Shown: piece after piece, positions 19,556 to 40,194 of the stretch
Layout: each line of letters begins with the position of its first letter
How positions within the stretch are numbered: position 1 is the first letter of the stretch
Assembly: GCA_011040095.1 (NCBI GenBank)
Contig: DRDE01000177.1
Location: 1-53,393 of the forward strand
Reading direction: 5' to 3'
Source: Nitrospirota bacterium
Lineage (GTDB): Bacteria > Nitrospirota > Thermodesulfovibrionia > UBA6902
DNA length: 53,393 bases
Program-made: the position numbers and the translations under genes
Notes under the pieces: generated by a model
Told to the model about the DNA's origin: nothing
Seen by the model: only the letters and a program-made list of their open reading frames with translations
The model's database searches: none

Positions 19556-20912
19556 ACCGTTTTCTCACCGGATGTTTTTTGCCGGGAAGCATCAGGTTCC
19601 ACAATGTGCCCGCGTATCCCATTTGATGGAGGGCCATTATAGTGTTGTCATAGGCGTCAGGAGGAAAGATACAGTTTTCTGTTTTTGAAAAAGCCTCATT
19701 CAAGGTATTCTCCAGCCAGTTTTTATCGGTTCCGGGGGAGATATAATAAACCGGCTTGAGCAGATCCTTGCCGGCAGGGATGACCTTTTCTCTTATCGCT
19801 ATGGCGGCAAGAGGAGTGGCAGGCAGAATTCTGATACCCATAAAAATAAAAACAACACATTTTTTTAAGCTTATGATGTTCTTTATTCCCTCTGATACGG
19901 TTTCTTTTGTCTCTCCCGGACCGCCGAACATGTAAAAATGCGATACGGCAATTTCATGCCTCCCGAATAAATCATTACATTTCCCGATCTCCTCAAAGGT
20001 AAAACCCTTGCCGAGTTTTTTCAGTGTTTCATTGGTGGAGGCATCAGCGCCGATTTCAACAGCGGCAAGACCTGTCTGCTTCATCATTTCAACAACCTTG
20101 TCATTTAACCCTGCCGGCTTGAAAAATCCTGTCCAGGGTATGCTCACTTTACGTCTTGCCATTTCCCCCAATAAATCAAGGTAAGCGCCTTCATCGTCAT
20201 TAAATACCGAATCCACGAAGAAGATATATTTTGCCTTATGCTTCCGTGAAAGCAGTTCAATATCATCAACAACCGAACGCGGGTCCCTCTGGCGGATTTT
20301 AGAGCCTTCCAGAACCGGGTATGTGCAGTACACACATTCGCGGGTACATCCCCGTTTGGTTTGTATGGAGGCCATATTTCCGCTGCGCAGATAAAATTCA
20401 ATCAGCCGGTCATCATATTTTGCCGGAACAAAGTCACATCCCGGGAGCCTGCTGCCGGATCCGATAATACGCTCTTCCGGGAATATTCCTTTAGCCGCGT
20501 TACCGGCAAACTCGACCATCAGTGATTCACCTTCCCCGGTAATTCCGTAATCAGCGCCTGTCGTTTGCATGATTAAATCGGGAACAAGAGAAAACCCCGA
20601 TCCTCCCAGAATTATTTTTATATCCGAAACTTCCCTTATTTTGTTTGCTATATCCCTGACAGTATCGATGTAATATTTTTCGTTTACAATATTGACATTG
20701 TCGATATTACGGATGGAAATGCCGGTCAAACCCGGTTGAAAATTTTTAATCTCCTCTCCAAGCGCATCTAATGAACTATTTTCCCGGAGGAAATCAAATT
20801 GCCTTACCTCGTGACCGGCAGCAGTCAGAGCTGCTGCAATTATACTGGCTCCCAGAGGATAGACAGGGTATGGCGACACGGATGTATTGGATGAAATCAG
20901 CAATATCTTCAT
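19542..20912 (-). CDS. Cobalamin-binding-domain (class B) radical SAM enzyme
   Basis: I prefer the start MKILLISSNT at 20910-20912, which overlaps the upstream stop as ATGA. B12-type N-terminal domain, then TKRGCTRECVYC (CX3CX2C). Confidence 0.9.
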   Translation of the reverse strand: MKILLISSNTSVSPYPVYPLGASIIAAALTAAGHEVRQFDFLRENSSLDALGEEIKNFQPGLTGISIRNIDNVNIVNEKYYIDTVRDIANKIREVSDIKIILGGSGFSLVPDLIMQTTGADYGITGEGESLMVEFAGNAAKGIFPEERIIGSGSRLPGCDFVPAKYDDRLIEFYLRSGNMASIQTKRGCTRECVYCTYPVLEGSKIRQRDPRSVVDDIELLSRKHKAKYIFFVDSVFNDDEGAYLDLLGEMARRKVSIPWTGFFKPAGLNDKVVEMMKQTGLAAVEIGADASTNETLKKLGKGFTFEEIGKCNDLFGRHEIAVSHFYMFGGPGETKETVSEGIKNIISLKKCVVFIFMGIRILPATPLAAIAIREKVIPAGKDLLKPVYYISPGTDKNWLENTLNEAFSKTENCIFPPDAYDNTIMALHQMGYAGTLWNLMLPGKKHPVRKRYAAK

Positions 20913-22180
20913 GGCTGCTTCCAGGCCCTGTTGCGGGATGTCCAATTTTTCCTGCCTGACCGGTTTCTTCCGGGCGTGAAGTCGTTTCTTTCTTTTTTCA
21001 TTACGTTCATGAACAGTTTTGCCATCTTGACTTCCCGGCTTTCTTTGACGTAAAAAGTATCCCACGCGTAATAAAACATCTCCTGCAATTTGTCCACACT
21101 CATCTTTGCCGGCCTGAATACAACTTCTCCGCTTGTATATCGCGACCAGTCATTATGTAAAATCCTGTTCTCCTTCTCCAGTACCTCCCTGATGGGAGTA
21201 TGCGGAAAGGGAGTCAGCACTGTAAATTCGGCCAGGTCCAGTTCGATCTCAACAAGGAAATCCACGAGCCGCTTTATATAATCTTCGTCATGATCGTCCA
21301 TCCCCAGGATAATCGTCCCCTCGACACCGATCCCGCGCTCCTTCAGCCTTCTCACCCTCTGTCTTATGTGATCCGATGTATCCATAATCGCCTGGTATAC
21401 ATACCAGCAGCCGGCCTCTGCCGCAAGGTCCAGTATCTCATCATCATCTTTGATAGGGTGAGATATCCATTTCTTATTCAACGGGATTAATGCCCTGAAT
21501 AATTCCTTTTCCCATTCATCATCCTGGGCAAGGGAATTATCAACAAAAAACAGGCGGCCGTTGTCTATCTGCTCCAGCTCTTCAACAACCGATTTAATAT
21601 TCCTGGGCCTGAAATTACGCCCCCCCAGATAAGGAGTGCAGCATGGGAAACAGTTGAACCTGCAGCCGCGGGAAGCGTGAACAAGGTCAACCATCTGTAC
21701 CCCTCTGTAATTGTACAAATCACGACTCAGGATGCTCCGCCTGGCTGGACCGATCAGGTCCATATCAGGATAATTATGCATGTAGTCATATACCTTCTTT
21801 AACCCTTTATTATTCAGGTCATTAATAATTTCTTCAAAACGTCCCTCGACCTCGCCGAGAAATACCGAATCCGCATGATCCAGGGTTTCCTCATGATGCA
21901 GCATTGCGGCAATACCGCCGAAAATGACCGGAATGCCCATATTCCTGAAACGGTCCGCAATCTCCCATGCGCGTGGAATCTGGCAGGTAAGCAAAACGGA
22001 TATGGCTACCATGTCGGCATCCGGACTAAAGTCAATCTCCTGCACGTTTTCATCGAAAAAAACAACCTCGACTTCGCCGGGGATTGCGGCCGCCACACAA
22101 ACAGGGGCGTGCGGGGGCAGATGAAATTCCGTCTGCCTGCTCAGTTTCGGCCACAGTGGATAAACAAATTTTATTTTCAC
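20909..22180 (-). CDS. Cobalamin-binding-domain (class B) radical SAM enzyme
   Basis: 423 aa (GTG start). KIKFVYPLW...DMVAISVLL...IFGGIAA, then ASRGCRFNCFPC (CX3CX2C). Confidence 0.9.
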   Translation of the reverse strand: MKIKFVYPLWPKLSRQTEFHLPPHAPVCVAAAIPGEVEVVFFDENVQEIDFSPDADMVAISVLLTCQIPRAWEIADRFRNMGIPVIFGGIAAMLHHEETLDHADSVFLGEVEGRFEEIINDLNNKGLKKVYDYMHNYPDMDLIGPARRSILSRDLYNYRGVQMVDLVHASRGCRFNCFPCCTPYLGGRNFRPRNIKSVVEELEQIDNGRLFFVDNSLAQDDEWEKELFRALIPLNKKWISHPIKDDDEILDLAAEAGCWYVYQAIMDTSDHIRQRVRRLKERGIGVEGTIILGMDDHDEDYIKRLVDFLVEIELDLAEFTVLTPFPHTPIREVLEKENRILHNDWSRYTSGEVVFRPAKMSVDKLQEMFYYAWDTFYVKESREVKMAKLFMNVMKKERNDFTPGRNRSGRKNWTSRNRAWKQP

Positions 22181-22842
22181 TATTGGTTCTCGCCTTTCCC
22201 GAGGACTGAAAATTCTTTCAGCATTTCATCCAATGCCCGGCTCCCTCTTAATATTGACATTGCCGTCTCAACATTACACAAAACATCCTGTCCTGAACCG
22301 GAATCTTTCTTTAGAACAAAATAAACCGCTTCCTCTTCCCTGCTCATTCCGGCGAGCATTACAGTCGATTCATCAAGAAGGATCATTTCAGCGGCGGTCT
22401 CTATCACAGGCAACAGGGAATTATCCGATGCAGCGATATAGAGCAGCGGCCCCTGCAGCCCGAAACGTATCGCGGCCTCGCCCAGCGGGCTTGTCGGCAG
22501 GGTATAAATAAAAAGATTCCCTCTTGATGATGTCCGGTTGCTGTCTATGTAGTCCATGAAATAATTAATATCGGTTTCAAGAGAGCCCCGACTATTGGTC
22601 CCTATAACCCCGATGTCCTGTTTCCGGTTCTGCGAATATTCAATCCCTGCATCTTTCAGCGCAAGGGCGGCTGCATAGCAGGTTATCCTGGAGGCATTGT
22701 CTATTCGTCCGAAGTTCTTATAAGAAGAGGTAAATATTTCTTTTTTTAAACGTGACTTATCATCATATGCAATCCTGATATTTCTCAGAATACAGCCATA
22801 TTCCGCTTTATTAATCCATCCTATGCCATTGACGGTAACCAT
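22180..22842 (-). CDS. Short KS-N-terminal-like protein without a catalytic Cys (chain-length-factor-like partner)
   Basis: 220 aa. Aligns to the N-terminal half of a KS (…ITCYAAALALKDAGI…GPLLYIAASDNSL…). No ACSS Cys and no C-terminal His motifs. Lies 8 nt after the KS gene. Confidence 0.7.
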   Translation of the reverse strand: MVTVNGIGWINKAEYGCILRNIRIAYDDKSRLKKEIFTSSYKNFGRIDNASRITCYAAALALKDAGIEYSQNRKQDIGVIGTNSRGSLETDINYFMDYIDSNRTSSRGNLFIYTLPTSPLGEAAIRFGLQGPLLYIAASDNSLLPVIETAAEMILLDESTVMLAGMSREEEAVYFVLKKDSGSGQDVLCNVETAMSILRGSRALDEMLKEFSVLGKGENQ

Positions 22843-22850
22843 ATCTTAAT

Positions 22851-23972
22851 CTATTTATGACAAATCAACGCTGCGTTTATTCCTCCGAATCCTGCACTGG
22901 TTATAAGAGCCATTTTCTCTTTATCTACACTGCGGGACCCGGATGATACCCACGCCTGAGCGTCTTCTTCACAATCTTTAAGATTGACTGTCGGAGGGAC
23001 TGTCTCCTCTTTCAGGCCCCTCAGGGCTATTATCATTTCAACAAGACCTGCTGCTCCCATTGTGTGGCCTATAGCTCCTTTTATTGAATATACAGGTGGT
23101 TTGTTATTGAAAATTGCATCAAATGCCTTAATCTCCATAGCATCGTTATAAACTGTGCCGGTTCCGTGTGCAGAGATTAAACCGATGGAGTTCTGGTCAA
23201 TGCCTGCATTCTTTAAGGCTTTTTTTATAGCCAGCACCCTTCCCGCACTGTCACTTGAGGGTCTTGTCATGTGATAGGCATCGTCACTCAGTCCCCAGCC
23301 TGTTATCCTGCCCACGATTTCCCTTTTTTCCTGTTTTGCCCTTTCTTCACTCATTACCAGTGCAAATGCCGCTGCTTCCCCTATGGTTAATCCGTTTCTG
23401 TTTTTGTCGAAAGGCCTGGCGCCGGATTTGTCCAGCGCCATTAATGCAGAGAAACCTGAAAAAAGAAATTCCGTTACGCTGTCGCATGCAACTACCAGCG
23501 CACAGTCACAGTGTTCCTCCCGGATCATTGCCGCAGCCCTGGCCACGGCCGCTGTAGAGGAAGCGCAGGCAGCAGAGACGATTATCCCCCGGTCTTCAAC
23601 ACCGGTAATATCCGCGACTTTTTTAAGCAGATGCCCCAGATTACAGCTTGATGCATCTCCGGTACCCTGAAGAAGCGATTTTTCGAGCAGGTCGATCTCT
23701 CCTTTTATTGTTGCCATCATAAGCCTTGCATCTCTTGGTATCGGGACCGGGACACTGTCAAACAGGGACCTCAGCATCTGCATAACAAGAGATTCTTTCC
23801 GGAGATATTCCAGGTTATCAACCGTGGCCGCACAATCGGCATGGAAGGCGTTTGTATTAAATCTGCCGAGCCTGGAGATAGCGGTTTGACCGGACATGAT
23901 GCCGTCCCAGCACGCATCTGCGCCCAATCCATAAGGTGTTACCATATTACATGAAACAACAACTGCTCTCAT
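22851..23972 (-). CDS. Beta-ketoacyl-ACP synthase, catalytically complete
   Basis: 373 aa. Motifs: IIVSAACASSTAAV (Cys), ISAHGTGTVYND (His), GHTMGAAG (His). Confidence 0.9.
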   Translation of the reverse strand: MRAVVVSCNMVTPYGLGADACWDGIMSGQTAISRLGRFNTNAFHADCAATVDNLEYLRKESLVMQMLRSLFDSVPVPIPRDARLMMATIKGEIDLLEKSLLQGTGDASSCNLGHLLKKVADITGVEDRGIIVSAACASSTAAVARAAAMIREEHCDCALVVACDSVTEFLFSGFSALMALDKSGARPFDKNRNGLTIGEAAAFALVMSEERAKQEKREIVGRITGWGLSDDAYHMTRPSSDSAGRVLAIKKALKNAGIDQNSIGLISAHGTGTVYNDAMEIKAFDAIFNNKPPVYSIKGAIGHTMGAAGLVEMIIALRGLKEETVPPTVNLKDCEEDAQAWVSSGSRSVDKEKMALITSAGFGGINAALICHK

Positions 23973-23995: not shown

Positions 23996-24487
23996 TTACT
24001 TTTTAAGTTGACCGAAATCTCCTGCCTTCCACCTTCTGCGGCATTTTTCCAGCAGGGCAGGAGACGTCAGGCTGACCTCACCGGATTTTACATCAATAAA
24101 CAACTGCACGGTATAACCGCTGGCTGCAAGGCTTCCGTCATTTTTTAATATAAAGTATTCAGTATTCAGGCGCGCCCCCTCATCCCATACTAAAACGGTC
24201 CGGATCGTAAACTCCTCGTCAAGCCGCAGCGGCCTGTGAAAATCAACATGATATTTGACAAGGGGGGCGCGTAATTCCGCCTCCTGAAAATCCTTGTACG
24301 ACAGGCCGCACTGTCTGCCCAGCGCCTCTGCCCCCTCTTCAAAATAAGCCGTGTATCTTCCGTACCATACAAATGCCATAAGGTCTATTTCGCTGAAGTG
24401 AACCCGCCTTTTAATTTCAACGACAATCGGATCAGGCCCATCCTCATGCCGTTTGAAATATGCTCCTCTCCCCCGCTTATTTTTCAT
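23996..24487 (-). CDS. Hotdog-fold thioesterase (4HBT/YbgC-like)
   Basis: VHFSEIDLMAFVWYGRYTAYFEEG is a typical 4HBT N-terminal motif. I prefer the ATG at 24485-24487 (GGGAGA upstream) over the TTG at 24502. Confidence 0.8.
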   Translation of the reverse strand: MKNKRGRGAYFKRHEDGPDPIVVEIKRRVHFSEIDLMAFVWYGRYTAYFEEGAEALGRQCGLSYKDFQEAELRAPLVKYHVDFHRPLRLDEEFTIRTVLVWDEGARLNTEYFILKNDGSLAASGYTVQLFIDVKSGEVSLTSPALLEKCRRRWKAGDFGQLKK

Positions 24488-24869
24488 TTGTCTCCCGCTC
24501 AAACCTGACCCTTAATTTCACTTCGGCAATTTTCCTGCCGTCTTTGTTAAAGAATGCTTTAAGGGTGATATCCCTGTCCGGGGCATTAATGATATTACAG
24601 GCACACATCACTTTTTCCAACGGGGAAACAGGTGACAGGAATTTTGCCAGGACAACTTCTTTCAGCACGACGCGCTTTTTTCCCCATTTCTCAAGCATAT
24701 TCAAGACGCATTGTATCTGACAGATACCCGGCAATATCTTGTTGCCCGGAAAGTGTCCCTGAAAGCCTATAAAATCCTCCGGAAATACAAAGCAGGCATT
24801 AAGGCCCCCGTTTTCAGCCGCCTGAAAGTCCGACATGCACTCTGCAATTGCCTTTTTGATATTTTTCAA
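24477..24869 (-). CDS. FabZ/FabA-like 3-hydroxyacyl-ACP dehydratase (hotdog fold)
   Basis: 130 aa with the catalytic His motif FQGHFPGNKILPGICQIQ. The TTG start overlaps the upstream stop (TTGA). Confidence 0.8.
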   Translation of the reverse strand: MKNIKKAIAECMSDFQAAENGGLNACFVFPEDFIGFQGHFPGNKILPGICQIQCVLNMLEKWGKKRVVLKEVVLAKFLSPVSPLEKVMCACNIINAPDRDITLKAFFNKDGRKIAEVKLRVRFERETNEK

Positions 24870-25528: not shown

Positions 25529-27918
25529 TGTTCTTTCTCTGCCTGAGCAGGTAAAATTTTCATCAGAGACGGAATAATAAAAATAGCAGAAATATATCCT
25601 GCCAGCACACCCATGAACAGGGTTATCCCGCTGGAAAACAATGCAGGATGTTTGGTAAAAAGCAAAACTCCCGCTCCGATAAGGGTAGTGACAGCAGAAA
25701 TCGAGATTGATAGTATAGCATTTTTTCTTAAATTATGCTGATAGTTATAGGTCATAAATATGCCGTAATCAATGCAAAGCCCCATTACGACTATGCCGGC
25801 AAACAGGTTTGCGATATTCAATGTAATGCCGGACAGGTACATAAAACCCATGAGCCATAAAACGCTTGTAAGCACCGGCACCAGTGCGATCAGCGCCCTC
25901 CTGAGATTCTTCAGGAATAAAAGAGTCAGCAAAACAATAAATGATGAGGCAATTACCGTCAAATATTTCGCTTCCGAAGAAGTGGAAGCGGATATGGACC
26001 GGGACAACAGCTTGCGTGATACCAGGAATGTTCCCGGATAATTTCCGATCAATTCAGATAATGCATCCACATATTTCTTCTCATCAGGGAAGAACGACAG
26101 TATCCTCACACCGTCTTCTCTTTCCCGGACAAATCTTTCTTTAAAAACCAGGGGAATATTATCATCGCCCGTTCCATTATTCACGGATGTGTCCGGATAT
26201 AAATTATCAAAGAACGGAGAAAATGCGGACGCGGAGAACCGGTACCCTGCTCCCTCTTCTTTTATCAGCCTTCTCAGCTTTTCTTCCCTGCCCTGTCTCC
26301 AGAACTCTTTCCATCTGTTCAGTTTTTTCAGCCGTGTTTTTTTCGAGGGCCATATTACGGCAAGACTCGAAAAATTTTCAGCGCCCACGGCTTTAACGGC
26401 ATCCTGATATATCCTGTCGTTCATTTCAAGCGCCTCTTCATAACTCTTTCCCGGTACGACAAAAAAAGCGCGATTGCCTTCATCTCCCCATGTCTTCCTG
26501 AAGTTTTCTTCTGCCTGCAAAACCGCCGGTTCGCTCCCGTCCAATTGCTGAATATTACTGTCAAACCTTACATTGAAAGCCATAAAGAAAGTTACACAAA
26601 CAGAAAAGACCCAGAGCACGGCAATCAGTTTATGATACCTGTTGGGACCTTTGTGCGATGCTTCCGGGGCTGAAGTAAAATTAAATGAAGGGCCTTTCGT
26701 TGATAATAAATGAGGCAGAATAAAAAGGGCTGATAAAAGCGACAGCGAAATGCTCAGAACCGAGAGAAAGGCGAGCTGATGATAACCCGGTGTCCTGGAG
26801 AAGAATAATGCGAAAAAAATACCTGATGTTGTCAGAGCGCCCATGCATACCGGCTTTGCTATGTGATTGATAACATGCGCTTCCCGTCCGTTGTTGCGGA
26901 CTGCTACATATATATGGATGCCGTAATCCACTGCTATGCCTGCGATCACGGTGCCCAGGCCGATTACCCATAAAGAAAGTCTTCCCATGAAGATGCCTGA
27001 CAGGCTGATTGATATAAGAACCGCTGCCGAGGGGATAAGGAAAATATATATGGCCCTGATGTCGCGAAAGACAACAAGAAATAATAGCAGGAAACCGGCT
27101 GCAGCAATGATAACGGCCAGGCGGATATCGTGTTTGATTACCTTTTCATTACTTATGGTGTGCAAATGCGCGCTTATGATGTCGGCGGAAATAAAATCGG
27201 GCAGGCGTGCTATTTTTTCATTCAGGGCAGTCAGAAGCTCTCTGGAGCCGGAGGCATCCGTCACCCGGACGGGTGTCTGTGTAATAACCATGGTATGTCG
27301 CCCGTCTCTGCTGATAAAATGCCCGTCTTCCATATTGACGTTATATTCCGTGAATGCTTTCAGTGTGTTCAGTTTGTCAAGCAGGAGAAGTCTGAGCCCG
27401 AGGGGATCGGAGTAAATCATTGATGACATGAAAATGCTTTGGGGACTTAACATCTGCCTGTAAATTCCCCGGAGTCTTTCGGAGATACTGTCCGGGTTTA
27501 TCAGGCTGTCAATGAATGACAGTTCTTCTTCGGTAATTACCCGGGGAATGTAATCAGAAAAAAAAATCCCGTCCATTATGTCCATACCCTGAAAGCCTGT
27601 GATTGTTTTTGTAAACAAGGGCGGGTTCAGAGAAGCGCTTAATTGTTCCGCTGCCCGGAAAAGATCTTTCCTGTTTTTCTCTTTTGAATTAAGGCCGAGG
27701 GAAATAACAATTTTATCGGAAAAATTGGAGTCCCTGAAGAAATCAATATTGCGCCTGATATTTATATCGTCCGGGAGCATTAATTCGACGCTGCCGTCGA
27801 ATTTGTCAAAAAAAAATCCGATACCGGAAGCTGCTATTAAAAATATGGCTGCCGCGAATACCGGAAGTCTCCTGTTTTTCACGAAATCATAAATGAGTGG
27901 AAAATATTTATCGAACAC
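25519..27918 (-). CDS. MMPL/RND-superfamily lipid exporter
   Basis: 799 aa (GTG start). Two repeats, each a large soluble loop plus a 5-6 TM bundle. Confidence 0.8.
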   Translation of the reverse strand: MFDKYFPLIYDFVKNRRLPVFAAAIFLIAASGIGFFFDKFDGSVELMLPDDINIRRNIDFFRDSNFSDKIVISLGLNSKEKNRKDLFRAAEQLSASLNPPLFTKTITGFQGMDIMDGIFFSDYIPRVITEEELSFIDSLINPDSISERLRGIYRQMLSPQSIFMSSMIYSDPLGLRLLLLDKLNTLKAFTEYNVNMEDGHFISRDGRHTMVITQTPVRVTDASGSRELLTALNEKIARLPDFISADIISAHLHTISNEKVIKHDIRLAVIIAAAGFLLLFLVVFRDIRAIYIFLIPSAAVLISISLSGIFMGRLSLWVIGLGTVIAGIAVDYGIHIYVAVRNNGREAHVINHIAKPVCMGALTTSGIFFALFFSRTPGYHQLAFLSVLSISLSLLSALFILPHLLSTKGPSFNFTSAPEASHKGPNRYHKLIAVLWVFSVCVTFFMAFNVRFDSNIQQLDGSEPAVLQAEENFRKTWGDEGNRAFFVVPGKSYEEALEMNDRIYQDAVKAVGAENFSSLAVIWPSKKTRLKKLNRWKEFWRQGREEKLRRLIKEEGAGYRFSASAFSPFFDNLYPDTSVNNGTGDDNIPLVFKERFVREREDGVRILSFFPDEKKYVDALSELIGNYPGTFLVSRKLLSRSISASTSSEAKYLTVIASSFIVLLTLLFLKNLRRALIALVPVLTSVLWLMGFMYLSGITLNIANLFAGIVVMGLCIDYGIFMTYNYQHNLRKNAILSISISAVTTLIGAGVLLFTKHPALFSSGITLFMGVLAGYISAIFIIPSLMKILPAQAEKEQCG

Positions 27919-28651
27919 TCTTGTTTATCCTGAAAAAACTGTCATCAAGAGGGGCATTTAATACAGTGTTCTCAAGGATGATCACTGTGGTGTCACCCTT
28001 GATCTCCCGGAACTCTATCTGTTTCAGGTATCTTGCATCTTCCCTGAATGTAACGGTGATGGATTTAATAATTTTTTTTGCGATGCTTTTTCCCCTGGGA
28101 ATGAATTCAAGCACATAAGGCCGCTGCTTTTTAATATGCACATCATAATTTTCCAGGAGGGAGATATAATTGCCGGAAAACCATACTGTCATCTGGTCTA
28201 TTATATTCCAGAAAATACTGTTTCCGGATATTTCGTTTATCTCGTTTGTATCTTCATCCCACTGCCGGATAACTTTATCCGTAATGAGGAGTTTATATTT
28301 AATGGGCTCCTCAACATGCCAGGCGATCTTGCCGGGTTTCCGCAGATACATTCTTCCTTTTATAATTATCTTGTTTTTGAATATGGCCAAGTGTTTTTCC
28401 TGAACAAAGTCTGTCTTTATGCTGTTAATATCAGAGAGCTTTTCTCCCAGTTGAAGCAGCAGACGGGATATACCGGATGCCCCGTATTCATTCTCTTCTT
28501 TTGCCTCTTTATTCTCTCCGGCAGGGGCTGCCGCGGTATCCCCGGGTAATTCGCCGCCTGCCGTACCGGGATATAAAGGGACAATCAAAACATAGACGAG
28601 GATACCCAGAAACAGAATGAATGTTTTTTTTTCAGCTCTCATTTGCCTCAT
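27908..28651 (-). CDS. LolA-like lipoprotein-carrier-fold protein
   Basis: Signal-anchor KKTFILFLGILVYVLIV, then FVQEKHLAIFKNKIIIKGRMYLRKPGKIAWHVEEP, which resembles LolA. The start is uncertain (28642, 28651 or TTG 28684). Confidence 0.65.
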   Translation of the reverse strand: MRQMRAEKKTFILFLGILVYVLIVPLYPGTAGGELPGDTAAAPAGENKEAKEENEYGASGISRLLLQLGEKLSDINSIKTDFVQEKHLAIFKNKIIIKGRMYLRKPGKIAWHVEEPIKYKLLITDKVIRQWDEDTNEINEISGNSIFWNIIDQMTVWFSGNYISLLENYDVHIKKQRPYVLEFIPRGKSIAKKIIKSITVTFREDARYLKQIEFREIKGDTTVIILENTVLNAPLDDSFFRINKSVR

Positions 28652-30116
28652 TACTATGCCAGACCTTAATCTCACCCCTGGCAATTAAATCATCTCCCTT
28701 AAATACCTCTCCTTTTACAATACCGAATTCATCAAGCTTTGCGACTTCACAGGTGCGCACACGCAGTTTGTCCCCTGCCGAGGCGCCGCCTAAAATCTCC
28801 AGATTCTTTATTCCCAGCAAAAAGCCTTTTATCGAAGATTCCCCGTTTTTCATATTCTTGAAACCATTTAATGCGGCAACGGATTGCGCAACCATTTCCA
28901 GGTAAAAGACATCGCCGATTTTACCGTCGTCTTCGATTAATATTGAATCTTCCGGAATCCGCAATTCCGACACTGACGATCTTTCGCTGACTTCAGTTAA
29001 TTCGTCTACAATAAGCATAGGCGGCTTGTGCGGTACAAGCCGGGAAGCCTTTAAGGGAAGACGAATGATTTCATCCTGTTTATCCAGATTTTTCCAGCAT
29101 GACGGGTCGGAAGCCAGGTAATCACCGGTCACTTGATAGGCTGCCCCGCGGCATCCGTAACATTCATTCCGGTTTTCACATCTTCCGCAGGGTCCCTTTA
29201 TGGTTTTTTTGTAATTTCTCAGGTCGCGGATGACCTCACTGTCTTTGAGAATATCAGAGAGCCCGCCTTCCCTTATATTACCGACCGGTATGGTAACGCC
29301 TACGCACGGCAGGACATCTCCATAGGCATTTACCACGCATGAAAACCGGTGTCTCAGGCACTGTCCGCCTACAAGCGGGGGCTGCGGATTCCAGGAACAG
29401 CCGTATTTTTCCCTGTCGATTCGGGCAATCCTGTAAAAAAGCTCCTTTACCCTGTGGGGTTCAACCTCCAGGAGGCCGTTTTCACTTGCCCTTCCCTGCG
29501 GGGTAATCATCTCGATATAGGGGGTAATCTTCTGATCCCTCATCCACTGCCACATTTCAACGAGTTCGTCTATGTTCCGGCGGCATATGATCGTGCTGAT
29601 CCCGAGCGGGGTTGTATGGGGATAACCCGCTTCCCTGAGATTATTGAATGCCTCCTGAATATACTTATATGCCCCCTTACTGCCTGAGAAAACATCCTGG
29701 AGGTTCTCATCAAGGGAATTCATTTTCAGCACGACTACGACCCCGGAATCAGACAGTGTCTTTGCAGCAGACTGCGTGATGTTCGTTCCGTTGGTGAAAA
29801 GCTCTATCTCCATGCCGAACTCTTTTATGAACCGGATCATTTCCATTATGTGCGGATAAAGCATAGGCTCCCCGCCGAGGATAATAATCTTTTTTGCGCC
29901 CAGTTCTCCTGCCTGCATGATTACATCACGGCTCTCCTCCATGGTCAATTCTTCCCTGCCGTTTGAATCGTTTTGTACATAACAGTAAATGCAGTTGAAG
30001 TTGCACTCGCGGTTAAACTCGATCTCCATGGACAGGAGCCCGCTGCCTGCGGCTGTCTCTTCTATCTCTTTTGCAGAGAACTCCGCTCCGTATATGCGAT
30101 TCCGGCATCTCATCAT
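28632..30116 (-). CDS. Radical SAM-SPASM enzyme fused to a C-terminal hotdog (dehydratase-like) domain
   Basis: 494 aa. NRECNFNCIYC (CX3CX2C). SPASM-type Cys pattern SCVVNAYGDVLPC ... CGRCENRNECYGC ... SCW. The last ~135 aa (HKPPMLIVDEL...GFLLGIKNLEI...GEIKVW) have a hotdog-fold pattern. Confidence 0.85.
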   Translation of the reverse strand: MMRCRNRIYGAEFSAKEIEETAAGSGLLSMEIEFNRECNFNCIYCYVQNDSNGREELTMEESRDVIMQAGELGAKKIIILGGEPMLYPHIMEMIRFIKEFGMEIELFTNGTNITQSAAKTLSDSGVVVVLKMNSLDENLQDVFSGSKGAYKYIQEAFNNLREAGYPHTTPLGISTIICRRNIDELVEMWQWMRDQKITPYIEMITPQGRASENGLLEVEPHRVKELFYRIARIDREKYGCSWNPQPPLVGGQCLRHRFSCVVNAYGDVLPCVGVTIPVGNIREGGLSDILKDSEVIRDLRNYKKTIKGPCGRCENRNECYGCRGAAYQVTGDYLASDPSCWKNLDKQDEIIRLPLKASRLVPHKPPMLIVDELTEVSERSSVSELRIPEDSILIEDDGKIGDVFYLEMVAQSVAALNGFKNMKNGESSIKGFLLGIKNLEILGGASAGDKLRVRTCEVAKLDEFGIVKGEVFKGDDLIARGEIKVWHSNEANES

Positions 30117-30117
30117 T

Positions 30118-31419
30118 TTAATTGTTTCTCCTGTCTATAAAGCGGTTTATTTTACGGGAGGATGCAGGCAGTATCCGTTTTTTGACCTCCTCGTCAGTGC
30201 AGATTAAAACATCGGGGCTTACGCGCAGCCTTGCCTGAAGCCTCTCCCTGATCCTGTCCGGCGGACAGGCGCTGCCGCCCTTGCTCAGCGACACATAAAC
30301 ATTCAATATATCAGAGAGATCAAAATCGCTGTGTACGGTAATATAATAATCACTGACCTCCGGAATCTCATCCAGGACGGAATATACGGCCTGGGGATAC
30401 AGAGTCGTTCCCCGGTATTTGATCATCTGTTTCTTCCTCCCGATTATAGGTCCGAGACGGGTTGAATGTCTTCCGCATTCACAGGGTTCATCAATCAGGA
30501 AACCGACATCACCTGTTTTAAACCTCAGCAGGGGCATCCCTTCCACCGACAGGGGCGTAACTACTATTTCCCCTGTTTCTCCCGGAGGCAGCGCCTCTCC
30601 CCTGTCATTGATTATTTCAACAATCGCCAGTTCGGGGTGCAGGTGCCCGCCTTTTTTTGCAGTGCATTCACAAAATGTCGTTATTGTCTCGGAAGAGGCA
30701 TATGTTGAATATATATCCGCCGGCCACATTTCTTCCAGGTACTGTCCCATTTTCAGAAGCGAGAGCGCATCGTCCCTGACCGGCTCACCGATGCAGACGA
30801 GCCTGGTTACAGGGGTTTCTTTCGGCTCCATACCCCCGGATTGCAGGAACCGGCCCAACTTATACAGAAATGACGGAACACCGACAATCACGGTAGGCTT
30901 CATCCTCCGGATAATCTCCATGTGGCTTGCAAAACTGCTCAGGCCGTTTCTGATAACAGCGGCCCCCCGCTGCTGCGCCCCTAAAAAGTAAGCCAGCCCG
31001 GCAATAAAGCATCTGTCCATTGTGCACGTGAGCAGGACGATGTCCTCCGCGGTAATTCCGCATCCCGCAAATGATATCTCCTCGTTGTATGCGAGGCGTT
31101 TCAGATCGTTTTCCGTGTACATGATCCTCGTAGGTTTGCCCGTGGTTCCGGATGATAAAACTATGTCCGTAATTTTGGACATGGGGACTGCAAGCAGTTC
31201 ATCATTGTACCTTTCAAGATCGGATTTATCGGTAAACGGCAGATCGCCCAGGTTATCAAGAGATATATTTTCCGGATCATGGCCCCTCAGTGTTCTGCTG
31301 TAATAAGGAGAATTTTTGGCAATATAACCAAGATGGCTTCTGAACATCGTTTCCTGTACCCGTTTTATTTCGTCAGGCCCTTCAAATTCAATCCCCCTGT
31401 ATTTGTAAAAATCCGTCAT
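30118..31419 (-). CDS. PaaK/coenzyme F390 synthetase-type adenylate-forming ligase
   Basis: 433 aa. Motifs: SSGTTGKPT, YASSE, FKTGD, GRKKQMIKYRG. ATGA overlap with the upstream acyltransferase gene. Confidence 0.85.
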   Translation of the reverse strand: MTDFYKYRGIEFEGPDEIKRVQETMFRSHLGYIAKNSPYYSRTLRGHDPENISLDNLGDLPFTDKSDLERYNDELLAVPMSKITDIVLSSGTTGKPTRIMYTENDLKRLAYNEEISFAGCGITAEDIVLLTCTMDRCFIAGLAYFLGAQQRGAAVIRNGLSSFASHMEIIRRMKPTVIVGVPSFLYKLGRFLQSGGMEPKETPVTRLVCIGEPVRDDALSLLKMGQYLEEMWPADIYSTYASSETITTFCECTAKKGGHLHPELAIVEIINDRGEALPPGETGEIVVTPLSVEGMPLLRFKTGDVGFLIDEPCECGRHSTRLGPIIGRKKQMIKYRGTTLYPQAVYSVLDEIPEVSDYYITVHSDFDLSDILNVYVSLSKGGSACPPDRIRERLQARLRVSPDVLICTDEEVKKRILPASSRKINRFIDRRNN

Positions 31420-32165
31420 GCCCTGCTCTCCATAAGGGACAGTTCATTGCCGATAATCTCCCGCACCCTGTTTTTCAATGAAAATATGGTCATTTCCCCA
31501 TAGTCCGTCCATGTAACGGCAGGCAGCCTGCGTATTCTGATTGTCCCGGGTCTTAAAAGAAGCGAGCCTCTGGGTGGAATGTTTTCATTCCCGGAGATGC
31601 AGAGCGGCACTATGGTCGCCTTTGATTTTAATGCAAGACGAAAGGCCGCACCATGGAAATGACCCGGTTTTCCGTGCGGGCGCCGCGTTCCCTCCGGGAA
31701 AAATATTATCGAGACCCTTTCCCTCAGTAATCCCATGGCCTTCTCAAAAAAATCTTCAGGCCGCATCTTCCTTATATTCAGATAGCCTGCCTTCCGGGCA
31801 AAGAAACCGAGAACCGGAATCCGGAAAGGCCATATGTTCACGACCTGCACAGCTTCATGAGGCAGCACGGACATCAGGAAGGCGTCTGATGCAGACCTGT
31901 GGTTGCAGACGAATATATACGGCTCCGGGATATTATCATCTGAATGATTTTCATAGATAAGCCTTATGAATGGAAAGGGAATTAACGTAGTGCCCTTCCC
32001 GTACCAACTGATGGCGCGACGGCACCTCCTGAGTCGACAGCGGCTTGATTTAAATAACGAACAGGAACCGAGGATAAGTGTAACGGCCGGAATGAATATC
32101 AGGGAATAAATTATAAAGAGAAAATAAAAATATAAGTTCAGAGAATAAATTTTAAAATTTTTCAT
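31416..32165 (-). CDS. PlsC-type (lysophospholipid) acyltransferase
   Basis: N-terminal TM helix, HX4D motif NHRSASD, and FPEGTR. Confidence 0.85.
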   Translation of the reverse strand: MKNFKIYSLNLYFYFLFIIYSLIFIPAVTLILGSCSLFKSSRCRLRRCRRAISWYGKGTTLIPFPFIRLIYENHSDDNIPEPYIFVCNHRSASDAFLMSVLPHEAVQVVNIWPFRIPVLGFFARKAGYLNIRKMRPEDFFEKAMGLLRERVSIIFFPEGTRRPHGKPGHFHGAAFRLALKSKATIVPLCISGNENIPPRGSLLLRPGTIRIRRLPAVTWTDYGEMTIFSLKNRVREIIGNELSLMESRA

Positions 32166-32183
32166 CTCGAAAGGAGTTCCCTC

Positions 32184-32438
32184 TCATTTTCTTTTCTTAT
32201 TCAGTTTAATAATAAGACTGTAGATGTCCTGAATAGTACGGATGTTTCTGACTTCTTCTTCATTCCGTATGTTAATTCCGAAACTTTTTTGCAATGCGGC
32301 AACCAAATCAACTATATCAAGGCTGTCCAGCCCCAGGTCGGTAAATATGTGCGCCCCGGGTTTCAACTTTTCTTTTTCTATCTCAAAGGATTCTTCAAAT
32401 ACCTTGTTTGTAATATCAACAATTTCCTGCTCAGTCAT
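32184..32438 (-). CDS. Acyl carrier protein
   Basis: LGLDSLDIVDLVAALQ motif. I prefer the start MTEQEIV at 32436-32438 (GGAGG 7 nt upstream); the ORF track extends to 32483. Confidence 0.9.
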   Translation of the reverse strand: MTEQEIVDITNKVFEESFEIEKEKLKPGAHIFTDLGLDSLDIVDLVAALQKSFGINIRNEEEVRNIRTIQDIYSLIIKLNKKRK

Positions 32439-32512
32439 TTTTCCCTCCCCAGGGCATTGAAATATTATTGATCTGTCAGACACTTATATAGAATAACTGC
32501 GAGTACGGCTTA

Positions 32513-35259: not shown

Positions 35260-35354
35260 TTTTTATCTGTTAAATTCTGTTAAATAGAGTCTGTAGCGGG
35301 CAGACTTACCCGGCATGTTTATGCATTATTAAGGTTAATACAGGAATAATAAAA

Positions 35355-36077
35355 CTACATTGCCATCCCGCCGTTAATTCCGATGACCTGCCCATGTATG
35401 TACATGTCCTCTTCAGTAGATAAAAAGTTGACGACAGCGGCCACATCTTCAACCCTGCCTAACCTGTTAACGGGAATCAAAGGTAAAATTTGATCTCTGG
35501 GAATATCTTCCGTCATTTCTGTCTCAATGAAGCCCGGTGCAACGACATTTACAAGTATATTTTTTTTACCGACCTCACGTGCTAAGGATTTAGCCGCTCC
35601 AATCAGCCCTGCTTTAGAAGCAGCGTAGTTGACCTGTCCGGCCTGGCCTATCTCGCCTGAGACTGATGAAACAACGACAATCCGGCCTTTTCTAGCCCTG
35701 AGCATAGAAAACAAAACAGTACGGGTAACGTTATAAAATCCGTCCAGATTTGTAGAAAGAACCGAACTCCATTCCTTTCTGGTCATCCATACAAGCAGAT
35801 TATCCCTGGCAATTCCAGAGTTGTAGACCAGCACATGCGGTGCAGATTTCTCTACTATCGGAGCCAAAGCCGCTTCTGTTTCATCATAGCTTGAGACATC
35901 AAAGGCTATTAAATCACACGACCTTCCCAGTGTTTCTATCTCTGTTTTTACATTTTCAGCAGCTTTATGGCTGCTCTTGTAGGTCAGGCAGATATCAAAC
36001 CCCGAACGGGCAAGGCGTAAAGATACGGCACGTCCGATTCCCCGGCTGCCGCCGACTATAAGGGCAGTCTTCCTCAT
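35355..36077 (-). CDS. fabG: 3-oxoacyl-ACP reductase, SDR family
   Basis: 240 aa. Motifs: VGGSRGIGRAV (TGxxxGxG-type), NSGI, YAASKAG (YxxxK). Confidence 0.9.
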   Translation of the reverse strand: MRKTALIVGGSRGIGRAVSLRLARSGFDICLTYKSSHKAAENVKTEIETLGRSCDLIAFDVSSYDETEAALAPIVEKSAPHVLVYNSGIARDNLLVWMTRKEWSSVLSTNLDGFYNVTRTVLFSMLRARKGRIVVVSSVSGEIGQAGQVNYAASKAGLIGAAKSLAREVGKKNILVNVVAPGFIETEMTEDIPRDQILPLIPVNRLGRVEDVAAVVNFLSTEEDMYIHGQVIGINGGMAM

Positions 36078-36082
36078 TTAAG

Positions 36083-36982: not shown

Positions 36983-36994
36983 GACAAAAGAGGG

Positions 36995-37464: not shown

Positions 37465-40194
<2,730 letters not shown>

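What the first reader, a model, noticed from the sequence alone, without database searches (positions are those of the whole stretch)
28632..30116. Radical SAM-SPASM enzyme fused to a hotdog (dehydratase-like) domain inside the acyl-chain operon
One 494-aa ORF combines three parts. It has a CX3CX2C radical SAM core (CNFNCIYC). It has a near-complete SPASM cysteine pattern (C-X10-C with GX4C, then CGRCENRNECYGC, then a final Cys), implying auxiliary Fe-S clusters. It ends in a ~135-aa hotdog-fold domain of the kind that binds acyl-ACP thioesters. SPASM enzymes are best known for peptide and cofactor maturation. Fusion to an acyl-thioester-binding fold, next to a ligase and an ACP, suggests radical chemistry on a carrier-bound lipid chain. 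The gene sits 1 nt after the ligase stop and overlaps the LolA-like gene, so the fusion is not an assembly artefact of two separate frames.
Basis: partly seen in the sequence, partly recalled or inferred. Interest (0 to 1): 0.72.

Follow-up and report, generated by a model that had tools for sequence, protein, structure and literature searches.

The report
Radical SAM enzyme fused to dehydratase
A real, widely conserved but never-studied enzyme joins an iron-sulfur "radical" catalyst to one half of the dehydratase that builds a pigment-like polyene lipid in anaerobic bacteria, which suggests that radical chemistry acts on the growing, carrier-bound chain.

Summary
The 494-aa ORF lies on the minus strand (28632-30116). 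It has an intact radical SAM core (C38/C42/C45 plus a GGE motif), a complete SPASM domain (seven canonical Cys plus an eighth, enough for two auxiliary clusters), and a C-terminal hotdog domain.

The hotdog domain is more specific than "dehydratase-like". It is an ApeP-type subunit of the heterodimeric aryl-polyene dehydratase (PDB 6QSR). It keeps the catalytic Glu407 but lacks the catalytic His. A separate ApeI-like ORF (24477-24869) supplies that His.

The fusion is not an artefact. It is intact in 18 syntenic loci from Nitrospirota and the Geobacter/Pelobacter groups and in more than 100 database homologues. In some phyla ApeI is fused on as well. A deep-alignment AlphaFold model is confident overall (pLDDT 90, pTM 0.89).

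The operon is an aryl-polyene/flexirubin-plus-dialkylresorcinol type II PKS cluster. It belongs to the "ladderane-like" class described in 2009, whose product is unknown.

The chemistry of the radical SAM domain remains inferred. The most likely role is oxidative tailoring of the ACP-bound chain at the dehydratase. A large sister clade has lost the radical SAM motif, which cautions against over-reading the fusion. I rate it a new variant of known kinds, of moderate to high interest.

The parts
28632..30116 (-). Whole gene: radical SAM - SPASM - ApeP-like hotdog fusion, 494 aa (stop codon 28632-28634)
29397..30035 (-). Radical SAM partial TIM-barrel core (about residues 28-240). Includes the GGE SAM-binding motif, G81-G82-E83.
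   Evidence: Pfam PF04055, E 8.8e-24. G81/G82/E83 are invariant. Foldseek matches to SkfB, SuiB, PqqE and anSME.
29982..30005 (-). CX3CX2C motif (C38-N-F-N-C42-I-Y-C45), ligands of the radical SAM [4Fe-4S] cluster
   Evidence: invariant
29097..29360 (-). SPASM domain (residues 253-340). Cys253, 260, 271, 310, 313, 319, 322 and 340 give ligands for two auxiliary [4Fe-4S] clusters.
   Evidence: Pfam PF13186, 37.2 bits against a threshold of 21.5. All eight Cys are invariant in 106 sequences. The pattern parallels anSME (that comparison is from my own knowledge).
28653..29054 (-). ApeP-like hotdog domain (residues 355-488), the Glu-donating half of a heterodimeric 3-hydroxyacyl-ACP dehydratase
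28896..28898 (-). Codon of Glu407 (motif L-E-M-V-A-Q), which aligns with the catalytic Glu of FabZ and with ApeP. Invariant in every hotdog-bearing relative examined.
24477..24869 (-). ApeI-like hotdog ORF (130 aa) with the GHFP catalytic-His motif (His39). Proposed partner subunit of the fused ApeP domain.
   Evidence: Pfam FabA, E 5e-4. BLASTP to E. coli ApeI. The top PDB hit is 6qsr_A (ApeI), E 0.0058. Present in 11 of the 12 related loci that reach this position. Fused to the radical SAM-ApeP protein in P0146, P0179, P0190 and P0265.
30118..31419 (-). FlxY-like (PaaK-type) aryl-acid ligase immediately upstream, separated by a 1-nt gap
   Evidence: NCBIfam FlxY, 457 bits (cutoff 520)
32184..32483 (-). 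Acyl carrier protein (ApeF/ApeE-like)
27908..28684 (-). LolA-like carrier (ApeL/LolA2-like). Overlaps the 3' end of the fusion gene. The likely start is Met12 or Met15 of the ORF (28651 or 28642).
35355..36077 (-). Ketoreductase (ApeQ/FlxB-like), first gene of the conserved cassette
22180..23972 (-). KS (22851-23972) and chain-length-factor-like (22180-22842) elongation pair
19542..22180 (-). Two B12-binding radical SAM genes. The product of 19542-21065 is an equivalog of TIGR04072 'rSAM_ladder_B12'.
   Evidence: 612 bits against a cutoff of 360

Best explanation
The gene encodes an obligatory subunit of the pathway's only recognisable beta-hydroxyacyl-ACP dehydratase, with a SPASM-type radical SAM enzyme attached.

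How the dehydratase part works. The C-terminal ApeP-like hotdog domain pairs with the separately encoded ApeI-like protein (24477-24869). Together they form one composite active site: His39 from the ApeI-like subunit and Glu407 from the fusion protein. This site dehydrates ACP-bound 3-hydroxy intermediates made by the cluster's KS/CLF pair and ketoreductase. No enoyl reductase is present, so the product is a polyene chain, as in aryl-polyene and flexirubin biosynthesis.

How the radical SAM part probably works. The N-terminal domain is held rigidly on this dehydratase. It reductively cleaves SAM at the C38/C42/C45 cluster, and the 5'-deoxyadenosyl radical abstracts a hydrogen from the same ACP-tethered chain. 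The two fully Cys-ligated auxiliary clusters then carry away an electron. The net result is an oxygen-independent oxidative tailoring step, either a desaturation or a C-C ring closure/cross-link on the growing chain.

Fate of the product. It is then esterified or anchored and exported to the outer membrane by the acyltransferase, LolA-like, MMPL and lipoprotein genes of the same operon.

What is shown: the domain architecture, the motifs, the homology to ApeP and ApeI, the synteny, and the existence of ApeP-ApeI double fusions.

What is inferred: heterodimer formation, that ACP-bound chains are the radical SAM substrate, and the type of reaction.
For: - Domains and motifs.
- ApeP homology.
- His/Glu split. 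The hotdog domain lacks the GHFP His but keeps the Glu that aligns with the FabZ catalytic Glu. The ApeI-like ORF has GHFP, with Gln at the Glu/Asp position. The literature describes ApeI/ApeP as a heterodimeric dehydratase with a single active site and reports an ApeH-ApeI fusion in A. baumannii (PMC8041823).
- No other ApeP-like gene was found in the window.
- Rosetta-stone fusions radical SAM-SPASM-ApeP-ApeI exist (P0146, P0179, P0190, P0265). P0146 sits in a syntenic cluster in Aminicenantes.
- A conserved cassette of about 17 genes recurs across Nitrospirota, Geobacterales, Desulfuromonadales and Pelobacter.
- One-to-one homologues exist for E. coli ApeR, Q, F, D, P, L, M, I, K, O and J.
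- Flx/Dar family matches and the TIGR04072 match.
- Whole-protein AlphaFold model with pLDDT 90 and pTM 0.89.
- Eight SPASM Cys mean both auxiliary clusters are fully ligated. In anSME and BtrN-type enzymes this goes with an electron-transfer (oxidative) role (my own knowledge).
- The best curated sequence families are the oxidative AhbD/NirJ enzymes.
Against: - No experiment exists on any member. No paper describing the fusion was found.
- About half of the diverse full-length hotdog-bearing relatives have lost CX3CX2C and GGE yet keep the SPASM Cys and the hotdog Glu. The barrel+SPASM module therefore has some role that does not need SAM cleavage.
- Stand-alone homologues (35-54% identical) occur without a fused hotdog domain in related clusters.
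- The Pfam ApeP-like score is below its gathering threshold. The ApeI-like partner is only weakly similar to ApeI (E 0.0058).
- The type of reaction cannot be derived from sequence. Every curated radical SAM family scores far below its cutoff.
Confidence: 0.55

Rival explanations
1. Co-localisation only. The hotdog domain is the ApeP dehydratase subunit, but the radical SAM domain acts on something other than the ACP-tethered chain. Candidates are the free aryl starter acid, the dialkylresorcinol moiety, or the released or anchored lipid. The fusion would then merely secure stoichiometry or assembly in a multi-enzyme complex.
For: - Stand-alone homologues (about 350 aa, 35-54% identical) sit next to the FlxY-like ligase and the DarB/DarH-type genes without any hotdog domain.
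- Other fusions of the module involve non-ACP partners: LolA in P0121, a PlsC acyltransferase in P0187, and B12-radical SAM domains in P0149 and P0253.
- The gene lies directly after the ligase.
Against: - The short, conserved linker and the high whole-chain pTM of 0.89 point to a fixed geometry rather than a loose tether.
- Fusion specifically to the acyl-ACP-binding dehydratase halves, ApeP and then ApeI, recurs across phyla.
Confidence: 0.2
2. Structural or redox accessory. The barrel+SPASM module mainly scaffolds or electronically serves the dehydratase or a neighbouring enzyme (for example as an Fe-S relay to the FAD phytoene-desaturase-like enzyme or the B12-radical SAMs). SAM-radical chemistry would be dispensable or vestigial.
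For: - A large sister clade lacks CX3CX2C and GGE yet conserves most SPASM Cys and the hotdog Glu/Gln.
- Tandem duplicated radical SAM-SPASM proteins (P0145, P0213) hint at dimeric assemblies in which one half could be inactive.
Against: - In the window protein, in the 21 homologues aligned with it (57-83% identical) and in the 106-sequence fused-plus-stand-alone alignment, CX3CX2C and G82-E83 are invariant. Purifying selection of this kind is expected for an active enzyme.
- The radical SAM Pfam score is strong (85 bits).
Confidence: 0.15
3. Peptide or protein maturase. As with most SPASM enzymes, the radical SAM domain would modify a peptide or protein, for example a small precursor or the ACP itself. 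The hotdog domain would be incidental.
For: The closest solved structures and PDB sequence hits for the N-terminal part are RiPP maturases and anSME (SkfB, SuiB, PqqE, CteB).
Against: - No precursor-like gene is conserved in the cassette.
- No RiPP-recognition (RRE) N-terminal domain is present; the radical SAM core starts at about residue 28.
- Every conserved neighbour is a lipid/PKS gene or an export gene.
- The better curated-family scores are to the non-peptide AhbD/NirJ enzymes.
Confidence: 0.05
4. Artefact. Two genes were merged by a frameshift or a mis-assembly.
For: None found.
Against: - Identical architecture in 18 independent genomes.
- More than 100 near-full-length homologues from NCBI, JGI, ENA and Logan assemblies.
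- Invariant residues run across the SPASM-hotdog junction.
Confidence: 0.01

Closest known systems
ApeI:ApeP heterodimeric 3-hydroxyacyl-ACP dehydratase of aryl-polyene biosynthesis (Xenorhabdus doucetiae, PDB 6QSR; E. coli CFT073 c1196/c1188)
   Same: - The C-terminal domain is homologous to ApeP: profile E 2.1e-12, TM 0.78, and 27.5% identity to E. coli ApeP.
- It keeps the same L-E-x-x-A-Q Glu and lacks the GHFP His.
- An ApeI-like GHFP protein is encoded in the same operon.
- The rest of the operon matches the Ape genes one for one.
   Different: - ApeP is a free-standing protein of about 150 aa. Here it is the C-terminus of a 494-aa radical SAM-SPASM enzyme.
- The Pfam ApeP-like score falls just under the gathering threshold.
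- The heterodimer itself was not tested.
ApeH-ApeI fusion of Acinetobacter baumannii (PMC8041823)
   Same: It is a precedent for one half of the split dehydratase being fused to another enzyme of the same cluster, with the other half encoded separately.
   Different: There the fusion partner is the adenylating ligase and the fused half is ApeI. Here the partner is a radical SAM enzyme and the fused half is ApeP.
SPASM radical SAM enzymes (anSME, SkfB, PqqE, SuiB, CteB) and, by sequence family, AhbD/NirJ
   Same: - CX3CX2C core and GGE motif.
- Complete 7-Cys SPASM motif plus an eighth Cys, as in anSME.
- Foldseek TM 0.58-0.68 on the target side.
   Different: - Scores are far below every curated family cutoff (AhbD 157 bits against 500), so this is a separate family.
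- There is no peptide-recognition domain.
- It is fused to an acyl-ACP dehydratase subunit and embedded in a PKS/lipid operon.
'Ladderane-like' extended FASII/PKS clusters of Kuenenia (kuste3335-3352), Desulfotalea, Geobacter and Pelobacter (Rattray et al. 2009, PMC2649909; NCBIfam TIGR04072)
   Same: - Same gene inventory: SAM-radical enzymes, a phytoene-desaturase-like FAD enzyme, a phenylacetyl-CoA-ligase-like gene, a non-canonical KS, a glycosyltransferase and an exporter.
- The window's B12-radical SAM passes the TIGR04072 equivalog cutoff.
- The fusion family occurs in Geobacter and Pelobacter relatives.
   Different: - I could not test whether kuste3342/3343 or DP1853/DP1855 are orthologues of the fusion.
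- The cluster now favoured for ladderanes is a different, smaller one (kuste3603-3608).
- Nitrospirota are not known to make ladderanes.
Flexirubin / arcuflavin (aryl-polyene + dialkylresorcinol) clusters (PMC3992019, PMC3949708)
   Same: - FlxY-like ligase, FlxB-like KR and LolA2-like carrier.
- DarB-family KS, DarG-family protein and DarH acyltransferase.
- ABC transporter.
   Different: - The Flx matches fall just below equivalog cutoffs.
- No TAL or DarA was recognised.
- Extra genes are present: a PDH-like enzyme, four B12-radical SAMs and the SPASM fusion.
- The hosts are anaerobes.
Jaw5/C10P radical SAM cyclopropanase working with an iterative PKS (reviewed in PMC13459092)
   Same: It is a functional analogy only: a radical SAM enzyme proposed to modify a carrier-bound enoyl or polyene chain during elongation.
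   Different: Jaw5 is HemN-like rather than SPASM, is not fused to a dehydratase, and works with a type I iterative PKS.

Membership tests
Radical SAM superfamily | CX3CX2C cluster motif, a SAM-binding GGE motif, and a Pfam PF04055 score above the gathering threshold | tested here: met
   C38/C42/C45 and G81-G82-E83 are invariant. PF04055 scores 85 bits against a threshold of 29.5.
SPASM subfamily | C-terminal 7-Cys motif CX9-15GX4C ... CX2CX5CX3C ... C, and a Pfam PF13186 score above threshold | tested here: met
   PF13186 scores 37.2 bits against 21.5. The motif reads C253-x12-G266-x4-C271, then C310-x2-C313-x5-C319-x2-C322, then C340, with an extra C260. The last spacing is X2 rather than X3. 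All are invariant in 106 sequences.
SPASM subfamily | Actual binding of two auxiliary Fe-S clusters | not testable with these tools
   Needs Fe/S analysis and EPR or Mossbauer spectroscopy on anaerobically reconstituted protein.
ApeP-like hotdog (PF22817) / FabZ-type dehydratase fold | Pfam score above the gathering threshold | tested here: not met
   24.5 bits against a threshold of 27, E 2.2e-5. The precomputed Pfam column for the best 120 homologues lists PF22817 for all of them.
ApeP-like hotdog (PF22817) / FabZ-type dehydratase fold | Homology and fold match to solved ApeP (6QSR chain B) | tested here: met
   Profile E 2.1e-12. Single sequence E 5.6e-8. Foldseek E 3.4e-10, TMt 0.78, rmsd 2.4. 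BLASTP to E. coli ApeP: 27.5% identity over 138 aa.
ApeI:ApeP heterodimeric dehydratase | Split catalytic dyad: Glu on the ApeP side, GHFP His on the ApeI side, with the partner encoded in the cluster | tested here: met
   Glu407 aligns with the FabZ Glu, and no GHFP motif is present in the hotdog domain. ORF 24477-24869 carries GHFP (His39). The partner is present in 11 of 12 loci that extend far enough.
ApeI:ApeP heterodimeric dehydratase | Physical heterodimer with dehydratase activity | not testable with these tools
   Supported only indirectly, by natural ApeP-ApeI fusions on the same polypeptide.
AhbD / NirJ / PqqE / MftC and other curated radical SAM-SPASM equivalogs | NCBIfam score above the curated cutoff | tested here: not met
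   Best scores: AhbD 156.8 bits against 500, NirJ2 147.2 against 500, PqqE 108 against 381, MftC 102 against 265.
Aryl-polyene / flexirubin type II PKS cluster | Co-located KS + CLF, KR, split DH, ACP, adenylating ligase, thioesterase, acyltransferase/GT, and LolA-like + MMPL export genes, with no enoyl reductase | tested here: met
   BLASTP finds homologues of ApeR (41%), Q (40%), F, D, P, L, M, I, K, O and J. Pfam results. FlxY scores 457 bits against 520, FlxB 292 against 340, LolA2 116 against 125, all just below the equivalog cutoffs.
Dialkylresorcinol (Dar) module | DarB-family KS, DarG and DarH above NCBIfam cutoffs; DarA aromatase present | tested here: inconclusive
   StlD/DarB family 538 bits against 450, DarG family 161.6 against 70, DarH 482.7 against 300: all met. 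No DarA was recognised among the ORFs scanned.
'Ladderane-type' lipid cluster (Rattray 2009 / TIGR04072) | TIGR04072 B12-radical SAM equivalog, plus a PDH-like enzyme and a non-canonical KS in one cluster | tested here: met
   The 19542-21065 product scores 612 bits against a cutoff of 360. PDH-like gene at 33760-35259. CLF-like KS genes.
'Ladderane-type' lipid cluster (Rattray 2009 / TIGR04072) | Orthology of the fusion to kuste3342/3343 or DP1853/DP1855; production of ladderanes | not tested
The product is chemically unknown.

The most novel reading that the evidence does not exclude
The radical SAM-SPASM domain may act iteratively on the ACP-tethered enoyl or polyenoyl chain each time it visits the attached dehydratase. 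In this reading it would form C-C bonds (ring closures) by radical addition into the conjugated system. This is the kind of 'ring-by-ring during elongation' mechanism that has been proposed, but never demonstrated, for ladderanes. If so, Nitrospirota, Geobacter/Pelobacter relatives, Lentisphaerae and Aminicenantes would make an unrecognised class of cyclised polyene lipids. The culturable members would give a tractable model for radical SAM chemistry on polyketide/fatty-acyl carriers.
Probability: 0.1. Interest if true: 0.9.

Novelty: new variant of a known kind. Interest (0 to 1): 0.62.

Why it matters
Radical SAM modification of fatty-acyl or polyketide chains is almost unexplored. [quoted passage not shown]

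Here a SPASM radical SAM enzyme is covalently and apparently rigidly joined to the Glu-donating half of a pathway's dehydratase. It is conserved across several phyla of anaerobes, with 325 representative clusters at E <= 1e-30.

This gives a concrete, testable handle on what the widespread 'ladderane-like' and aryl-polyene-like clusters of anaerobes make. These clusters are routinely flagged by genome mining and have never been explained.

It also names a defined substrate to try, ACP-bound intermediates generated by the cluster's own KS/CLF, KR and DH. Relatives occur in culturable genera (Geobacter, Pelobacter), whereas anammox bacteria have no genetic system.

The intact and pseudo-radical-SAM sister clades form a natural experiment on what the barrel+SPASM module contributes.

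Tried and rejected
- **Plus-strand reading.** Translation of the given coordinates on the plus strand is full of stop codons. The gene is on the minus strand.
- **First structure model.** The first AlphaFold run used 22 sequences and gave a poor model (pLDDT 61, SPASM region below 45). I replaced it with a 106-sequence run (pLDDT 90).
- **Promoter/terminator scan.** The scan of 27500-37800 found no more sites than shuffled sequence, so it is uninformative.
- **Literature searches.** I searched for a described radical SAM-SPASM-hotdog fusion, for ApeP/ApeI, for kuste3342/3343 and DP1853/1855, for ladderane plus Geobacter, and for aryl polyene plus radical SAM. These found only the cluster-level papers and nothing on this protein. 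The Pelobacter genome paper was irrelevant.
- **Link to anammox.** I tried to reach anammox proteins by searching with the stand-alone homologue P0137. The named hits were Acidobacteriota, Zetaproteobacteria, Methylomirabilis, Nitrospirota and Deltaproteobacteria, with no anammox names in the top 120. Orthology to the Kuenenia genes stays open.
- **Second radical SAM-SPASM gene.** The gene at 46670-47728 was considered as a paralogue and rejected (24% identity).
- **L019.** This second locus in one MAG was considered as an in-genome pseudo-radical-SAM paralogue, but the contig is riddled with frameshifts.
- **Membership in curated families.** Membership in AhbD, NirJ, PqqE or MftC was rejected on the curated cutoffs.
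- **Ligase as ApeH.** BLASTP gives no hit of the upstream ligase to ApeH. It is FlxY/PaaK-type.


Full report
**1. Observation**

The coordinates 28632-30116 hold a single 494-codon ORF, but on the minus strand; the plus-strand translation is full of stops. The ligase gene ends with TAA, followed by one base and then the ATG at 30116, with a GGAG 13 nt upstream. The LolA-like ORF overlaps the 3' end. Its likely starts are Met12 or Met15, which still gives an overlap of 11-20 nt.

Pfam finds three domains:
- Radical_SAM, residues 33-187, 85 bits, E 8.8e-24.
- SPASM, residues 253-314, 37.2 bits, above the gathering score.
- ApeP-like hotdog, residues 357-457, 24.5 bits, just below the gathering score of 27.

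**2. The three domains in detail**

I made a 22-sequence alignment and a 106-sequence alignment that adds stand-alone relatives. The following are invariant in the 106-sequence alignment:
- C38, C42 and C45.
- G81-G82-E83-P84, the SAM-binding 'GGE' motif.
- Eight SPASM cysteines: C253, C260, C271, C310, C313, C319, C322 and C340.

The canonical first cysteine is C253 (C253-x12-G266-x4-C271). The 7-Cys motif is therefore complete, and an eighth Cys is present, as in anSME. That arrangement implies two fully Cys-ligated auxiliary clusters (the anSME comparison is from my own knowledge).

Curated NCBIfam families all score far below their cutoffs. The best are AhbD (157 bits against 500) and NirJ2 (147 against 500). 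This is a separate family.

For the C-terminal domain the evidence is:
- The family profile hits PDB 6qsr_B, the ApeP chain of the X. doucetiae 'Dehydratase Heterocomplex ApeI:P', at E 2.1e-12 over residues 357-491.
- The single sequence hits the same chain at E 5.6e-8.
- BLASTP against E. coli CFT073 ApeP gives 27.5% identity over 138 residues.

A first AlphaFold model from 22 sequences was poor (pLDDT 61). A second from 106 sequences is confident over the whole chain (mean pLDDT 90.0, pTM 0.89).

Foldseek with the second model gives these matches:
- N-terminal two-thirds: SkfB, SuiB, PqqE, CteB and anSME.
- C-terminal domain: FabZ (TM 0.80-0.87, rmsd 2.2-3.0) and ApeP (TM 0.78, rmsd 2.4).
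- No PDB chain covers more than about half of the protein (best TM normalised to the query, 0.52).

**3. The hotdog domain is one half of a split dehydratase**

In the alignments to ApeP and FabZ, the FabZ 'GHFP' catalytic His is absent from the fused domain (sequence ...EDDGKIGDV...). The catalytic Glu is kept (L-E407-M-V-A-Q411). Glu407 and Gln411 are invariant in every hotdog-bearing relative I examined.

The 130-aa ORF 24477-24869 in the same operon has the complementary pattern: F-Q-G-H39-F-P...L-P-G, with Gln at the Glu/Asp position. Its best PDB hit is the ApeI chain 6qsr_A (E 0.0058, weak but top-ranked). It also matches E. coli ApeI and Pfam FabA.

The literature describes ApeI/ApeP as a heterodimeric dehydratase with a single active site. 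It also reports that in A. baumannii ApeI is fused to the ligase ApeH (PMC8041823). No other ApeP-like gene was found in the window. The fusion protein therefore most likely supplies the catalytic Glu of the cluster's only recognisable dehydratase.

**4. The fusion is conserved and has informative variants**

The best 120 homologues are 57-100% identical and nearly all 483-506 aa. Nearly all carry the same three Pfam domains (P0089, a 374-aa fragment, lacks the Radical_SAM entry). They come from NCBI, JGI, ENA and Logan assemblies. Where named, they are from Nitrospirota, Geobacteraceae or Pseudomonadota. The window itself is a Nitrospirota MAG contig (P0001).

In 18 genome loci from Nitrospirota, Thermodesulfovibrionia, Geobacterales, Desulfuromonadales and Pelobacter, the ORF aligns over residues 1-489. 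It sits in an invariant gene order: KR, PDH-like, KS(ApeR-like), ACP, PlsC-type acyltransferase, ligase, [radical SAM-SPASM-ApeP], LolA-like, MMPL, lipoprotein, ApeI-like, thioesterase, KS, CLF, B12-radical SAM, B12-radical SAM, GT2.

An exhaustive HMMER search of 1.84 billion cluster representatives gave 325 hits at E <= 1e-30. Among the best 150:
- 77 are stand-alone radical SAM-SPASM proteins of about 350 aa (35-54% identical).
- 42 carry the hotdog domain. These include Lentisphaerae/Victivallales members.
- Four are triple fusions radical SAM-SPASM-ApeP-ApeI. One of these, P0146 from an Aminicenantes MAG, sits in a syntenic cluster in which the export genes that separate ApeP and ApeI in the window are absent.
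- Single cases are fused to LolA (P0121) or to a PlsC acyltransferase (P0187).

The ApeP-ApeI double fusions are Rosetta-stone evidence for the proposed pairing.

One unexpected result: about half of the diverse full-length hotdog-bearing representatives have lost CX3CX2C and GGE. They retain most SPASM cysteines and the hotdog Glu/Gln.

**5. What the operon is**

BLASTP against the E. coli CFT073 aryl-polyene cluster (fetched as L025) gives counterparts for these Ape proteins:
- ApeR (41% identity), ApeQ (40%), ApeF (42%) and ApeO (36%).
- ApeD, ApeP, ApeL, ApeM, ApeI and ApeK.
- ApeJ, which is split in the window into a GT2 gene and an LpxL-like acyltransferase gene.

No enoyl reductase was found.

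NCBIfam adds the following:
- The ligase resembles FlxY (457 bits, cutoff 520). FlxY is a characterised 4-coumarate-CoA ligase of flexirubin biosynthesis (PMC3992019).
- The KR resembles FlxB, and the LolA-like gene resembles LolA2.
- A DarB-family KS, a DarG-family protein and DarH all pass their cutoffs.
- The B12-radical SAM encoded at 19542-21065 is an equivalog of TIGR04072 'rSAM_ladder_B12' (612 bits against 360).

The locus is thus an aryl-polyene/flexirubin-plus-dialkylresorcinol type II PKS cluster of an anaerobe. It is decorated with a phytoene-desaturase-like flavoenzyme, four B12-radical SAMs and the SPASM fusion.

This is the cluster class that Rattray et al. (2009) found in Kuenenia, Desulfotalea, Geobacter and Pelobacter while looking for ladderane genes (PMC2649909). 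Genome-mining studies report it as 'ladderane' clusters of unknown function in non-anammox phyla (PMC9902471). Heterologous expression of the Kuenenia genes gave no product, and the radical SAM proteins were not detected (PMC4790861). The cluster now favoured for true ladderanes is a different, smaller one, kuste3603-3608.

I could not establish whether kuste3342/3343 or DP1853/1855 are orthologues of the fusion.

**6. Mechanism**

*Shown:* the architecture, the motifs, the split dyad, the synteny and the fusion variants.

*Inferred:* The ApeP domain and the ApeI-like protein form the single-site dehydratase of an ER-less, polyene-forming elongation cycle. The radical SAM-SPASM module is rigidly attached (pTM 0.89). 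[quoted passage not shown] Its two fully ligated auxiliary clusters would remove an electron. The outcome would be an oxygen-independent oxidative step, either a desaturation or a C-C ring closure/cross-link.

The type of reaction is a guess. It is guided by the fully ligated auxiliary clusters and by the nearest curated families, AhbD and NirJ, which are oxidative enzymes.

*Rivals:* The radical SAM domain may act on a non-ACP substrate, with the fusion serving only assembly. The stand-alone homologues next to the ligase argue for this. Alternatively, the barrel+SPASM module may be mainly a structural or redox accessory. The pseudo-radical-SAM clade argues for this, whereas strict conservation of all motifs in the window's clade argues against it. 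A peptide-maturase role is unlikely, because no precursor gene and no recognition domain are present. An artefact is excluded.

**7. Novelty and verdict**

Each part is a known kind: a SPASM radical SAM enzyme, an ApeP dehydratase subunit, and an APE/flexirubin or 'ladderane-like' cluster. Automated pipelines already label the domains; one JGI name reads 'radical SAM enzyme/predicted hotdog family 3-hydroxylacyl-ACP dehydratase'.

No curated family covers this protein. No solved structure has the architecture. No paper in the searchable library describes or tests it.

I classify it as a new variant of known kinds. It has above-average interest because it physically ties radical SAM chemistry to a carrier-protein-dependent chain-building enzyme and gives a concrete experiment for a long-unexplained cluster class.

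Noticed in passing
Relatives P0133, P0136, P0139, P0150, P0151, P0154, P0161, P0169, P0170, P0172, P0254, P0179, P0190, P0265, P0187 (no window coordinates): A large 'pseudo-radical-SAM' sister clade. These proteins are full length and carry the hotdog domain, but they have lost CX3CX2C and the GGE motif. They keep most SPASM cysteines and always keep the hotdog Glu/Gln. About half of the diverse fused representatives are of this type.
   Followed up: partly
L028 9644-11602 (P0146, Aminicenantes MAG); also P0179, P0190, P0265: Triple fusions radical SAM-SPASM-ApeP-ApeI on one polypeptide, in a syntenic cluster that lacks the LolA/MMPL export genes between the two hotdog halves.
   Followed up: yes
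window 9220-13180 (+): Two B12-binding radical SAM genes (one BchE-like, one HpnR-like) lie directly upstream of a DarB-family ketosynthase. No DarA aromatase was recognised anywhere in the window. They may be an oxygen-independent replacement for the aromatisation step of dialkylresorcinol synthesis.
   Followed up: no
window 13571-17141 (-): A dialkylresorcinol-type accessory module: a DarG-family protein (16626-17141), the DarH BtrH-like acyltransferase (15617-16648), and an ABC ATPase with its ABC-2 permease.
   Followed up: partly
window 46670-47728 (+): A second, stand-alone radical SAM-SPASM gene. It is only 24% identical to the finding. It lies next to a methyltransferase (45696-46406) and a Wzy_C/O-antigen-ligase-like gene (44150-45586), and appears unrelated to the polyene cluster.
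   Followed up: partly
window 5254-6180 (+) and 6234-6569 (-): An IS1595-family transposase and a HigA-type antitoxin sit at the left edge of the biosynthetic region, next to the KS/CLF pair at 6657-8899.
   Followed up: no
window 19542-21065 (-): The ORF as listed starts at a GTG and overlaps the upstream B12-radical SAM gene by 157 nt. However, the TIGR04072 match and all homologues begin at about residue 52, so the true start is probably about 150 nt downstream.
   Followed up: partly
window 30105-30107 (-), Cys4 of the fusion protein: An N-terminal Cys4 is invariant in the 22 closest fused homologues but not in the stand-alone relatives. Cys178 is likewise invariant in those 22 and is retained in most relatives, including most stand-alone ones. 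The role of both is unknown. Residues 1-7 are modelled with low confidence.
   Followed up: no
window 24866-25528 (-): A 220-aa protein with a lipoprotein signal (…IAGCSS) and no family hit. It is conserved between the MMPL and ApeI-like genes in all related loci. By position it is the counterpart of the LolB-like ApeN (DUF3261), but no sequence similarity was detected.
   Followed up: partly
L018 and L019 (Nitrospirota MAGs, MFD assemblies): These long contigs are frameshift-ridden; many cluster genes are split. The apparent second, divergent copy of the cluster in the same MAG as L005 could therefore not be evaluated.
   Followed up: partly
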